DNA from: a virus
Lineage: Duplodnaviria; Heunggongvirae; Uroviricota; Caudoviricetes
Strand: one strand, 5' to 3'
Length of the DNA: 56,474 nucleotides
Virus record (IMG/VR): IMGVR_UViG_2880372215_000005
Below are positions 44,555-46,748 of this stretch, in pieces. The notes under the pieces were generated by a model that had not been told where the DNA came from, ran no database searches, and saw nothing but the letters and a program-made list of their open reading frames with translations. Within the stretch, counting starts at the first letter, position 1; every line of letters begins with the position of its first letter. A program made the translations under genes and the position numbers.

Positions 44555-44710
44555 TTACTCCTCAGGTTCGTAAGCTGTGAAGACAGCGACCTCCGTCTGG
44601 CCGGTTCGGATTCGTACCTCGCAGAGGTCTTTCCTCGTTACCAGTGCCGTCACTATGACGATTAAACAGATGACGATCAGGGCGATTAACATCGCCTTTT
44701 GCTGCTTCAT
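44555..44710 (-). CDS. hok: Hok/Gef-family type I toxin
   Basis: MKQQKAMLIALIVICLIVIVTALVTRKDLCEVRIRTGQTEVAVFTAYEPEE (51 aa) nested in a longer mok-like reading frame 44555..44767. Confidence 0.85.
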   Translation of the reverse strand: MKQQKAMLIALIVICLIVIVTALVTRKDLCEVRIRTGQTEVAVFTAYEPEE

Positions 44711-45045
44711 AGCCTGCTTCTCCTTGACCTTTCGGTCCGTAAGAGGCAATCTATATGTGACGAGCATATAGGGGCCTCACTTCGATTTATAGTCGGGTGG
44801 GGCTTTTATCTATCTGCCGTTGGTGTTCATGCCCGAGGCAGATAGCCTCAAGCACCCGCAGCAATCCTACTTAACTCTGCCGTTACAGCAAACCGTTTTC
44901 GCCCGATATGGGAATTCCCATATCGGAATGAATTCAGTTCACCTGGCGAGGCTTAGCGTACAATTTTTTCCGTTTTGTGAGCTGCCCCTACATGCCGCTG
45001 GCGCGGCATCCGGAAAAAGAATCCACGTCCTGAAGGACGAGGATG

Positions 45046-45804
45046 TCAAGTGCCTTTCCTGGTCCAGCCATATTTTTTGAATGCAGGCGCCGCTTCATCG
45101 GTTTGTAGCCATTCTGCAAATCGACGGGTTTCATCATTTGCATCCTGACGTACTGTAATGTTCATATCACGCCATATCACGTAGTCTGGCGCTATTTCCA
45201 CGACATCACCAATTTCTGGATTACTGGCTGCCCAGTCAGCCCAGGTTATCCAGACATCTGCTCCAGGCTGATTCTCAAGAGCCTTACGTGCAGTTCCGCT
45301 ATTGGGCGCATATAAAATAATATTTTTTCGGATTGCGGCGACAGTTTCTATATTCCCTTTACGTCCGGCAATATCTTCCCAGACGCCAGTGCCTGATGTA
45401 TTACTGGTACCACCACCATCATTAACAATTACGCCAATCCCAGGTCTGGTCAGGTCGTCAATACTCCGGATATTTTTAGGATTACCTTTCTTTACCAGTA
45501 AAATACTTTTTCGCAGATAAAGAGGCTGAATATCTTTTTCACTGAAGCTGTCTTTATGGTCCCGAATGATAGCCAGAGCAGATTGTTCTGATGCGCCAAA
45601 CAAGATATCTGCATTTTTTTTGGCATCTTCATTCCATTTGTTCTGTGGGCCGTAATGAACGTTCACTATAATACCTGTTTTTTCGGCATAAAGTTTGGCT
45701 GCATCAAGCAAGGCTGTATGCGGGCCACCAGGACCATACAGATTGATATCAGCATAAGCAGCAGAAGACAGGAATATTAAAAAACCTGCCATTATGTTCC
45801 TCAT
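45046..45804 (-). CDS. secreted periplasmic solute-binding-protein-like protein (ModA/PBP2-like fold suspected), orphan moron
   Basis: 252 aa with signal peptide (MRNIMAGFLIFLSSAAYA); no adjacent permease or ATPase genes. Confidence 0.45.
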   Translation of the reverse strand: MRNIMAGFLIFLSSAAYADINLYGPGGPHTALLDAAKLYAEKTGIIVNVHYGPQNKWNEDAKKNADILFGASEQSALAIIRDHKDSFSEKDIQPLYLRKSILLVKKGNPKNIRSIDDLTRPGIGVIVNDGGGTSNTSGTGVWEDIAGRKGNIETVAAIRKNIILYAPNSGTARKALENQPGADVWITWADWAASNPEIGDVVEIAPDYVIWRDMNITVRQDANDETRRFAEWLQTDEAAPAFKKYGWTRKGT

Positions 45805-46222
45805 AAAAAACTCCTTTTATTGGTTATCATGAAATAAAGTTATAAACACTACAAATAATATATATTACATCCAGATAAACTTATCCGACTTTACCTCGTG
45901 CATAGCTTGTTATTTAAAGTCAACAAAATAAGGAAAATTATACGCATATTGAAGAGTATAAACCTTACATGTTGATTACATTTTTGTAATCAACATCCTG
46001 TTTGGAATAGCCAGCCTTTAATGGATAACTATTTCTGACAATGCAATGAGTATAATCAAGTCCATCTTCCACTGAGAATTAGAGGCGGCATGCTTTTTCC
46101 GGCTCTTGCCGGATATCCGTAATTGTCCATAATCTGCAGATTTATACCTTCTGCATGACCTGTCAGCGAAAATTTGTCCGGTGTTTCTACGGGAATGACA
46201 TCAAAAGTTACACGCACTCGCG

Positions 46223-46748
46223 TTACCGTGTAGACCTACTTTCCTGCACTTGCAAGATCACAGTGGTGTAACCGTAACAGGAATTTATTCTCTGGACCGG
46301 CAGTAAATCCCTGAGTGGCGTGGTTCCCATATCAATTTCCCGCCAGGCAGCCTCCATTGCCAGCGTACAGGCTGGAGCCATGACCTGCCCTTTAAATCTG
46401 GCCCGACCATCCCACCGGACGTGTTCTTCTCCCCTGAACTTAGGTACAGTCATCTCCAGTGGCACAAAAGTGTCAGCGCCATAATTTTTGACCGTTATCG
46501 CGCTACGGATATTTTGTTGACTGGTGAAAATCACCCCGCAGAATCAGGCTTATTCCCTTAACCTGGGCTTTCATCCTGACCGCCGCCTCACTACGACCAA
46601 TCAGACTGCCGATGCATTTTACCTTCATTGTTAGTATCATGATTTCAGGCCTGCACCATCCGCTCATTGCCCGGACTTCCGACAAATCCCGGCAACCATA
46701 TCCCGGTGCTTGTTCAGCTCCCGCAGCGCGGCGCAGACTCGCTCCCAC
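46223..46748 (-). pseudogene. hypothetical gene split across two overlapping frames (possible frameshifted ORF)
   Basis: ORFs 46503..46748 and 46223..46534 overlap by about 30 nt in different frames; no family recognised. Confidence 0.2.

What the first reader, a model, noticed from the sequence alone, without database searches (positions are those of the whole stretch)
45046..45804. Orphan secreted solute-binding-protein-like moron
A 252-aa protein with a signal peptide and a periplasmic binding-protein-like fold is encoded alone, without permease or ATPase genes, among early genes. Possible roles are nutrient scavenging, signalling or receptor masking. Family assignment is from residue pattern only.
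Basis: inference. Interest (0 to 1): 0.5.

Follow-up and report, generated by a model that had tools for sequence, protein, structure and literature searches.

The report
Known prophage colonisation gene paa/adfO

Summary
The ORF is real: minus strand, 45046-45804, 252 aa, with a strong ribosome-binding site and a canonical Sec signal peptide (predicted cleavage AYA|D).

It is 100% identical in DNA to the gene RefSeq annotates as "paa: AcfC family adhesin Paa" in E. coli O157:H7. This is adfO/Z2053 of prophage CP-933O (O-island 57).

The protein matches the crystal structures of C. jejuni PEB3 and V. cholerae AcfC (E about 1e-81). An AlphaFold model (pLDDT 91) superposes on them at TM 0.95-0.96. 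ModA and sulfate-binding proteins come next.

Two results go beyond annotation:
- In 80 species carrying a homologue, none has an ABC ATPase gene within 2.3 kb.
- The PEB3 ligand-binding Thr-Ser is kept in 73 and 76 of 76 homologues, including those from free-living bacteria.

I therefore favour a periplasmic small-anion receptor that affects adherence indirectly, rather than a true surface adhesin.

Novelty: already known. Interest: low.

The parts
45046..45804 (-). paa / adfO coding sequence (252 aa, stop codon included); AcfC/PEB3-family solute-binding protein
   Evidence: ORF. 100% nucleotide identity to RefSeq 'paa: AcfC family adhesin Paa' WP_001449026.1. Pfam SBP_bac_11 E=5.5e-34. PDB hits PEB3/AcfC E about 1e-81. 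AF2 model and Foldseek.
45751..45804 (-). Codons 1-18: predicted Sec (SPase I) signal peptide MRNIMAGFLIFLSSAAYA, cleavage before D19
   Evidence: Hydropathy and the -3/-1 Ala rule computed. There is no Cys, so it is not a lipoprotein. Mature PEB3 crystal chains 2hxw/3fj7 start at the residue aligned to query residue 19. Model pLDDT is below 65 over residues 1-20, as expected for a signal peptide. Cleavage itself is inferred, not shown.
45811..45817 (-). Shine-Dalgarno sequence AAAGGAG, 6 nt before the ATG
   Evidence: Read directly from the sequence. It is conserved in the ETEC plasmid allele and the GGAG core is kept in E. albertii. It supports Met1 as the start, rather than the Met5 used in some phage records.
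45026..45039 (-). Terminator-like hairpin CGTCCTTCAGGACG followed by a T-rich tail, 7 nt after the stop codon
   Evidence: Consensus scan. It is conserved in the plasmid allele. Function is not shown.
45805..46055 (-). AT-rich (about 30% GC) upstream region with promoter-like elements, including a perfect TATAAT at 45942..45937 that is conserved in the plasmid allele
   Evidence: Composition; alignment. The formal sigma-70 scan found only a weak site at 46078-46049. No transcription start is known from these data.
45969..45996 (.). Perfect 12-bp inverted repeat ATGTTGATTACA-N4-TGTAATCAACAT at the upstream edge of the mobile paa block; candidate operator
   Evidence: unique in the window, 0 expected by chance. 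It is partly conserved in the plasmid allele. Function unknown.
44978..45995 (-). About 1 kb 'paa block' shared at 87-89% nucleotide identity with stand-alone alleles on IncF plasmids of pig ETEC and other E. coli
   Evidence: The plasmid hits cover query 479-1499 of window:44500-46600. In plasmid NZ_CP122714.1 the gene lies alone between repA and IS1/IS3 elements.

Best explanation
Identity (near certain). This is paa/adfO (Z2053 in EDL933), a lysogenic-conversion cargo gene. It lies on the lambdoid prophage integrated next to ompW in E. coli O157:H7 and related STEC/EPEC (the CP-933O / OI-57 / 'PPompW' type).

Mechanism (inferred).
1. The 252-aa precursor is exported by Sec, and signal peptidase I cuts it after Ala18.
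2. The mature 234-residue protein is a two-lobe class II periplasmic binding protein of the AcfC/PEB3 family.
3. It closes around a small anionic ligand, a phosphorylated or sulfated metabolite or oxyanion. Binding uses the invariant SNTSGTG loop (T136/S137) and the NSG loop (S169/G170).
4. It has no transporter of its own. I propose it works as a periplasmic receptor that passes ligand or signal to a host-encoded membrane partner.
5. The partner is more likely a sensor or chemoreceptor, less likely a distant transporter.
6. This changes envelope and secretome physiology, and so raises adherence and gut colonisation indirectly.

Basis of each step. Shown here: gene identity, fold, export signal, orphan status, pocket conservation and cargo character. 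Shown by others: the adherence and secretome defect of adfO mutants, and the ligand and chemotaxis data for PEB3 and AcfC. Inferred: the ligand class for Paa, its periplasmic site of action and the indirect route.
For: Identity:
- 100% identity over 2.1 kb and 3.2 kb to O157:H7 chromosomes annotated paa.
- Phage records annotate it 'Paa/adherence factor AdfO'.
- OI-57/CP-933O carries adfO (Z2053) next to ckf and three nleG genes (PMC8565820; PMC9729726). That matches the hokD ORF at 44555-44767 and the three NleG ORFs in the window.

Fold and pocket:
- establish the fold.
- PEB3 T138/S139 align to Paa T136/S137 (alignment; I recall those two as PEB3's ligand residues from Min et al. 2009).
- T136 is kept in 73/76 and S137 in 76/76 species-level homologues. 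G138, T139, W142, E143, D144, R148, S169, G170, W185, T187, W188, D190, W191 and R212 are kept in 76/76.

Orphan status is a family trait:
- 0 of 80 loci from 80 species have an ABC ATPase ORF within 2.3 kb. The positive control was detected.
- Neighbours of the gut-clade genes are unrelated housekeeping genes. The exception is V. cholerae, where a dCache-HAMP-MCP chemoreceptor ends 48 bp upstream.
- Homologues at 40-49% identity sit in ECF sigma/anti-sigma operons. They lie with SLAC1/TehA channels, LysR regulators and sulfite-oxidase-type Mo enzymes.

Literature:
- AcfC is periplasmic, binds sulfated glycans and mucin in ELISA, affects chemotaxis to mucin and does not mediate adhesion (PMC5976639).
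- PEB3 is described as a transport protein for 3-phosphoglycerate.
- An adfO mutant loses HeLa adherence and also loses several secreted proteins (PMC8565820). That points to an indirect effect.
Against: - No ligand, localisation or partner has been measured for Paa itself, here or in any paper I could read.
- The original Paa work (Batisson 2003, not held in the library) reported that anti-Paa antibodies reduce attaching-effacing lesions (from memory). That is easier to explain if some Paa is surface-exposed.
- AcfC binding to heparin, chondroitin sulfate and mucin fits a direct adhesin equally well.
- The ABC screen uses a motif regex on crude ORF calls. It cannot see partners encoded elsewhere in the genome.
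- In Enterobacter bugandensis a complete ABC system ends 690 bp upstream of the homologue, although that system has its own SBP.
- The environmental-clade contexts are from proteins only 40-49% identical and may not transfer to Paa.
Confidence: 0.55

Rival explanations
1. Paa is a true adhesin. After export it reaches the cell surface or the medium and binds sulfated host glycans (heparan sulfate, mucin) directly, tethering the bacterium during the first steps of attachment.
For: - This is the name and annotation used throughout the field.
- AcfC binds heparin, chondroitin sulfate and mucin in ELISA (PMC5976639).
- The adfO mutant adheres poorly to HeLa cells.
- Anti-Paa antibodies reduce A/E lesions (Batisson 2003, from memory; paper not held).
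Against: - The protein has only a Sec signal peptide: no lipobox, no beta-barrel, autotransporter or fimbrial features.
- AcfC fractionates to the periplasm, and deleting it does not change adhesion.
- PEB3 is described as periplasmic and as a transport protein.
- The binding cleft is almost invariant from gut pathogens to Roseobacter, Paracoccus, Thiobacillus and Synechocystis. A host-glycan adhesin would not be expected to show this.
- The adfO mutant also loses unrelated secreted proteins.
Confidence: 0.25
2. Paa is a conventional substrate-binding protein that delivers a phosphorylated or sulfated nutrient to an ABC (or other) importer encoded elsewhere on the E. coli chromosome. Its benefit is nutritional.
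For: - PEB3 is reported to support use of 3-phosphoglycerate in C. jejuni (Min 2009, as cited).
- The nearest non-family structures are ModA and sulfate-binding ABC receptors.
- Sharing one permease between two SBPs is established for the E. coli sulfate/thiosulfate system (general knowledge).
Against: - 0 of 80 homologue loci have an ABC ATPase within 2.3 kb.
- No importer partner is known for any family member in the papers read.
- NCBIfam sulfate, thiosulfate and molybdate SBP models score far below their cut-offs: 22.6 bits against 288, and 18.3 against 62.5.
Confidence: 0.15
3. The gene serves the phage rather than the host, for example by masking a receptor or excluding superinfecting phages. 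Alternatively it is a neutral passenger.
For: - It sits in the delayed-early region, on the early-gene strand.
- Its PHROG family (phrog_11834) has no assigned function.
Against: - There is no PADLOC match.
- In 2.9 million viral contigs the family is essentially confined to one E. coli prophage lineage: 43 of 45 loci are at least 98% identical. By contrast it is chromosomal in many bacterial phyla.
- The same block also rides on plasmids without phage genes.
- Mutant phenotypes concern host-cell adherence.
Confidence: 0.04

Closest known systems
[quoted passage not shown]
   Same: It is the same gene. DNA is 100% identical over the gene and its flanks to RefSeq-annotated paa (WP_001449026.1). 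The neighbours are the same: hokD/ckf, three nleG genes, and integration next to ompW.
   Different: Nothing differs at the sequence level. The cluster representative P0001 differs by one residue (A141 for V141).
PEB3 of Campylobacter jejuni (PDB 2hxw, 3fir, 3fj7, 3fjg)
   Same: About 52% identity over the whole mature protein, E about 1e-81. Same fold, TM 0.94-0.95. Same signal-peptide boundary. Same Thr-Ser ligand loop and NSG loop. Also an orphan gene with no adjacent transporter.
   Different: PEB3 K135 is T133 in Paa. PEB3 is a chromosomal core gene, not phage cargo. Ligands are known for PEB3 (3-PG, PEP, phosphate, citrate) but not for Paa.
AcfC of Vibrio cholerae (PDB 4jb7)
   Same: The best structural match: TM 0.96, rmsd 1.3 A, 51% identity. 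It lies on a mobile virulence island, is periplasmic and acts as a colonisation factor.
   Different: acfC lies 48 bp downstream of a chemoreceptor gene (acfB-type dCache-HAMP-MCP). paa has no such neighbour. The AcfC mutant shows a chemotaxis phenotype rather than an adhesion phenotype.
ModA (molybdate) and Sbp/CysP/SubI (sulfate/thiosulfate) ABC-transporter binding proteins
   Same: Same class II oxyanion-binding-protein architecture. They are the next-best structural neighbours, TM 0.7-0.79, and give weak local HMM matches around the SNTSG loop.
   Different: Only 11-19% identity. NCBIfam scores lie far below the family cut-offs. Those proteins are encoded in operons with a permease and an ATPase, and Paa-family genes are not.

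Membership tests
AcfC/PEB3/Paa family (subgroup of Pfam SBP_bac_11) | Full-length sequence homology to PEB3 and AcfC | tested here: met
   phmmer against PDB: PEB3 E=1.2e-81 (query 11-248), AcfC E=3.5e-81. Pfam SBP_bac_11 scores 118 bits against a cut-off of 25.
AcfC/PEB3/Paa family (subgroup of Pfam SBP_bac_11) | Two-lobe class II periplasmic binding-protein fold superposable on PEB3/AcfC | tested here: met
   AF2 model pLDDT 91.1, pTM 0.84. Foldseek: 4jb7 TM 0.96 at 1.3 A; 3fj7 and 2hxw TM 0.95.
AcfC/PEB3/Paa family (subgroup of Pfam SBP_bac_11) | Conserved ligand loops: GPGGPH, SNTSGTG-WED (PEB3 T138/S139) and NSG | tested here: met
   All are present in the window protein at 24-29, 134-144 and 168-170. 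They are invariant in 30 relatives. T136 is kept in 73/76 and S137 in 76/76 across 76 species. The role of T138/S139 in PEB3 is recalled from Min et al. 2009, not re-derived here.
AcfC/PEB3/Paa family (subgroup of Pfam SBP_bac_11) | N-terminal Sec signal peptide and periplasmic export | tested here: met
   Sequence features, and the boundary matches mature PEB3 chains. Actual export and cleavage cannot be tested with these tools.
Paa/AdfO (the named E. coli gene) | Sequence identity to the reference gene, in its prophage context | tested here: met
   100% nucleotide identity, annotated paa. 11 phage records at 99.6-100% protein identity are annotated Paa/AdfO.
Paa/AdfO (the named E. coli gene) | Contribution to adherence and colonisation | not testable with these tools
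   Known only from the literature as summarised in PMC8565820. The primary papers are not held.
Canonical ABC-importer substrate-binding protein | Encoded with a cognate permease and ATPase | tested here: not met
   None lies in the early region of this prophage. 0 of 80 homologue loci have an ABC ATPase ORF within 2.3 kb; the regex positive control worked.
ModA / sulfate-thiosulfate SBP equivalogs (NCBIfam) | Score above the curated cut-off | tested here: not met
   Best scores are 22.6 bits against a cut-off of 288 (sulfate SBP) and 18.3 against 62.5 (modA).
Phage moron (lysogenic-conversion cargo gene) | Composition unlike the flanking phage genes, and presence/absence polymorphism among related prophages | tested here: met
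   GC is 30-42% over 45300-46200 against 50-56% in the flanks. Related prophages carry DUF977 plus QueH in the same DUF1627-hokD slot. The same block is on plasmids. Only about one phage lineage in IMG/VR carries it.
Phage moron (lysogenic-conversion cargo gene) | Own promoter and terminator, with expression from the repressed prophage | tested here: inconclusive
   A terminator-like hairpin lies 7 nt after the stop codon. A conserved TATAAT and an inverted repeat lie upstream. No convincing -35/-10 pair was found in the scan, and there are no transcript data.
Surface adhesins (lipoprotein, autotransporter, fimbrial) | Lipobox Cys, beta-barrel or usher-dependent features that place the protein on the surface | tested here: not met
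   There is no Cys after the signal peptide. Pfam finds only an SBP domain; the 'pAdhesive_6' hit at E=0.13 is noise.

The most novel reading that the evidence does not exclude
The whole AcfC/PEB3/Paa family may be an ABC-independent class of periplasmic oxyanion receptors rather than adhesins or transporter components. The proposed wiring is:
- to ECF sigma/anti-sigma pairs and sulfite-handling genes in free-living bacteria;
- to a chemoreceptor in Vibrio;
- to a still unknown host partner in E. coli.

On this reading 'adhesin Paa' is a misnomer for a phage-delivered sensor of a gut-derived phospho- or sulfo-anion.
Probability: 0.3. Interest if true: 0.5.

Novelty: already known. Interest (0 to 1): 0.15.

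Why it matters
As a finding in this window it matters little. paa/adfO is a routine virulence marker in STEC, EPEC and pig ETEC typing, and it is present in 610 of 5426 complete E. coli genomes.

The residual value is mechanistic. How Paa promotes adherence has not been explained in the papers I could read. The family-wide results here argue that the 'adhesin' label should be tested against a periplasmic-receptor model. Those results are:
- no ABC partner near the gene in 80 species;
- a near-invariant small-ligand pocket shared with free-living bacteria;
- ECF sigma/anti-sigma linkage in distant members.

This would affect how paa is read in risk scoring, and how it is judged as a vaccine antigen.

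Tried and rejected
- Primary papers. I tried to read Batisson 2003 (PMC166039), Rangarajan 2007 (PMC2206636), Ho 2008 (PMC2346697) and Imamovic 2010 (PMC2976316). None is held, so their content is cited only through reviews or marked as memory.
- NCBIfam. There is no family-specific HMM. Only sub-threshold sulfate and molybdate SBP hits appeared, so membership in those equivalogs is rejected.
- Promoter scan. The only formal sigma-70 match upstream (46078-46049) lies outside the block conserved with plasmid alleles. The scan total (5 found against 4.0 expected) is not above chance. The promoter is left unresolved.
- Anti-phage defence. PADLOC gave nothing.
- PHROGs. The protein has its own family with no assigned function, which is uninformative.
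- Conserved partner gene in the gut clade. None was found. Neighbours were DnaA, thymidine kinase, PFOR, omptin, integrase, amidohydrolase and SurE.
- Fimbrial pseudogene as a clue to origin. Its intact homologue lies in a chaperone-usher operon next to pgtABC in strain A7. No paa-like gene is there, so I treat the phosphoglycerate link as coincidence.
- Limits of the ABC screen. It uses a Walker A + LSGGQ + Walker B regex on longest-Met ORFs. 28 of the 80 loci have less than 3 kb on one side. Permeases were not screened directly.

Full report
**1. The observation**

The window has an ATG-initiated ORF of 252 codons at exactly 45046-45804, on the minus strand. An AAAGGAG Shine-Dalgarno sequence lies six bases before the ATG. 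This favours Met1 as the start over the Met5 used in some phage records.

The N-terminus is MRNIMAGFLIFLSSAAYA|DINLYGPGG. It has one positive charge and a 12-residue hydrophobic core with a mean Kyte-Doolittle value up to 2.8. Ala sits at -3 and -1, and there is no cysteine. This is a standard Sec/signal-peptidase-I signal and not a lipoprotein signal. The mature crystal chains of PEB3 begin at the residue aligned to position 19.

The fold claim also holds:
- Pfam SBP_bac_11 matches end to end (E=5.5e-34).
- The protein matches the sequences of solved PEB3 and AcfC structures at E about 1e-81.
- An AlphaFold model built on 30 relatives has mean pLDDT 91.1.
- That model superposes on AcfC 4jb7 (TM 0.96, 1.3 A) and PEB3 (TM 0.95). 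ModA and sulfate-binding proteins follow at TM 0.7-0.79 and 11-19% identity.

No permease or ABC ATPase gene is nearby. On the gene's own strand, the upstream neighbours are a frameshifted fimbrial pseudogene, a small ORF, a DUF1627 gene and the replication genes. The downstream neighbours are the hokD/sok type I toxin-antitoxin locus, then DUF968, RusA and a Q-like antiterminator.

**2. What it is**

The 2.1 kb around the ORF is 100% identical to many E. coli O157:H7 chromosomes. There the gene is annotated 'paa: AcfC family adhesin Paa' (WP_001449026.1). [quoted passage not shown] These are 'PPompW' prophages and tandem Stx2a phage records.

The window ends exactly at the integrase gene that abuts ompW in strain 124. 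At its other end the window carries three NleG effector ORFs, Lom and a porin fragment. This matches published descriptions of O-island 57 / prophage CP-933O:
- adfO is Z2053.
- The adjacent 'ckf' killer gene is Z2054, here the Hok/Gef ORF at 44555-44767.
- NleG2-3, NleG6-2 and NleG5-2 are also on the island (PMC8565820; PMC9729726).

paa alone is found in 610 of 5426 complete E. coli genomes. 581 places are chromosomal and 36 are on plasmids.

**3. Cargo (moron) character**

- Composition: GC falls to 30-42% across 45300-46200, against 50-56% on both sides.
- Terminator: a terminator-like hairpin lies 7 nt after the stop codon, and it is conserved in plasmid alleles.
- Upstream region: the AT-rich 250 nt contains a perfect TATAAT (45942..45937) shared with the plasmid allele. 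It also holds a perfect 12-bp inverted repeat at 45969-45996.
- Promoter: the formal promoter scan is not above chance. An independent promoter is therefore plausible but not shown.
- Mobility: a block of about 1 kb (window 44978-45995) recurs at 87-89% identity as a stand-alone gene on IncF plasmids of pig ETEC. There it lies between repA and IS elements.
- Slot variation: related lambdoid prophages fill the same DUF1627-hokD slot with DUF977 plus QueH instead.
- Phage distribution: among 2.9 million viral contigs the family occurs in essentially one lineage. 43 of 45 loci are at least 98% identical.
- Bacterial distribution: in bacterial genomes the family is chromosomal across Enterobacterales, Aeromonas, Vibrio, Francisella, Campylobacter, Helicobacter, Desulfovibrio, spirochaetes, Roseobacter, Paracoccus, Thiobacillus, Burkholderia and Synechocystis.

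The phage has therefore picked up a bacterial gene.

**4. How it probably works**

*Literature on the family.*
- AcfC is periplasmic and binds heparin, chondroitin sulfate and mucin in ELISA. It affects chemotaxis towards mucin and gut distribution, and does not mediate adhesion (PMC5976639).
- PEB3 was first called an adhesin. It is now described as a transport protein for 3-phosphoglycerate and other phosphates.
- An O157 adfO mutant adheres poorly to HeLa cells. It also loses several secreted proteins.

*Result 1: the ligand cleft is conserved.* PEB3 Thr138/Ser139 align to Paa Thr136/Ser137. I recall these two as the ligand-site residues mutated by Min et al. 2009. Across 76 species-level homologues, T136 is kept in 73 and S137 in all 76. 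G138, T139, W142, E143, D144, R148, S169, G170, W185, T187, W188, D190, W191 and R212 are kept in all 76. That degree of conservation, shared with free-living marine and soil bacteria, fits a small-molecule pocket better than a host-specific adhesive surface.

*Result 2: orphan status is a family trait.* In 80 loci from 80 species, no ORF with ABC ATPase motifs lies within 2.3 kb of the homologue. The nearest is a 950-aa ORF at 2311 bp. The regex did detect the known ATPase in the control loci. The one ambiguous case is Enterobacter bugandensis. There a complete ABC system with its own SBP ends 690 bp upstream.

*Gene neighbourhoods.*
- In the gut clade the neighbours are unrelated housekeeping genes.
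- V. cholerae is the exception: a dCache-HAMP-MCP chemoreceptor gene ends 48 bp upstream.
- Homologues at 40-49% identity sit repeatedly in ECF sigma/anti-sigma operons. They sometimes lie with a Lipoprotein_15 protein, and near SLAC1/TehA-type anion channels, LysR regulators and sulfite-oxidase-type molybdoenzymes.

*My best model.* Paa is a Sec-exported periplasmic receptor for a small phospho- or sulfo-anion. It acts through a host-encoded membrane partner and changes adherence indirectly. I give this about 0.55. Within it, I rate signalling somewhat above transport.

*Rivals.*
- A true surface adhesin for sulfated glycans: 0.25.
- A conventional SBP feeding a distant importer: 0.15.
- A phage-centred or neutral role: 0.04.

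PADLOC gives no defence match.

**5. Comparison with known families**

The gene is Paa/AdfO itself. It is a full member of the AcfC/PEB3 family by sequence, fold, signal peptide and ligand loops.

It is not a member of the ModA or sulfate/thiosulfate SBP equivalogs. NCBIfam scores are 22.6 bits against a cut-off of 288, and 18.3 against 62.5. It also fails the operon criterion of canonical ABC-importer SBPs. It has none of the features that place known adhesin classes on the surface.

**6. Verdict**

The object is an already named, widely typed virulence-associated gene.

Novelty: already known. Interest: low (0.15).

The only part worth carrying forward is the family-level hint that these 'adhesins' are ABC-independent periplasmic anion receptors.

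Noticed in passing
window 45969-45996: A perfect 12-bp inverted repeat, ATGTTGATTACA-N4-TGTAATCAACAT, lies about 165-190 nt upstream of the paa start. It sits at the edge of the block shared with plasmid alleles. It is unique in the window, with none expected by chance. It may be a regulator-binding site.
   Followed up: partly
window 44555-44857 (- strand): A hok/sok type I toxin-antitoxin locus lies immediately downstream of paa. The Hok/Gef ORF is at 44555-44767 (Pfam HOK_GEF). The Rfam sok antitoxin RNA is at 44708-44857 (103.9 bits). This is the 'ckf' gene that the literature says always accompanies adfO.
   Followed up: partly
window 46056-46534 (- strand); L091 6963-7550: A fimbrial-subunit pseudogene (frameshifted, with an internal stop in RefSeq) lies just upstream of paa. 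An intact 85%-identical copy lies in a chaperone-usher operon of E. coli A7. That operon happens to sit next to the phosphoglycerate-sensing genes pgtABC. I judge this to be coincidence.
   Followed up: partly
window 44768-46663; L092 2595-5039: The slot between the DUF1627 gene and hokD is a variable cargo site. Other lambdoid prophages carry DUF977 plus epoxyqueuosine reductase QueH there, or DUF977 plus DUF551, instead of the fimbrial remnant plus paa.
   Followed up: partly
window 1-6285 and 55344-56474: The window is a whole lambdoid prophage. The integrase (55344-56474) abuts ompW in a matching genome. The far end carries three NleG type III effector ORFs (1924-2565, 2647-3276, 3349-3975, all on the - strand), Lom (5686-6285) and a truncated porin ORF (1-768).
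   Followed up: partly
L050-L053, L059, L067, L071, L072, L074, L075, L077, L078, L088 (around the match at about 8001): Homologues at 40-49% identity from Endozoicomonas, Citrobacter, Serratia, Thiobacillus, Rhodanobacter, Aureimonas and others lie in or next to ECF sigma/anti-sigma gene pairs, often on the same strand. Some also lie with a Lipoprotein_15 (PF03640) protein. Roseobacter, Paracoccus and Burkholderia copies lie near SLAC1/TehA channels, LysR regulators and sulfite-oxidase-type Mo enzymes. This suggests a sulfur-oxyanion sensing or handling module that, as far as I know, has not been described.
   Followed up: partly
PMC8281228 (literature): One comparative-genomics paper calls paa 'an LEE-encoded adhesin'. 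In this window, and in the matching complete genomes whose annotation I read, it lies on the ompW prophage and not in the LEE.
   Followed up: no
window 39849-40081 (- strand): Two prophage-borne tRNA genes (tRNA-Arg tct, and a CAT-anticodon tRNA) lie downstream of the Q-like gene. ARAGORN calls the second one Met and RefSeq calls it Ile.
   Followed up: no
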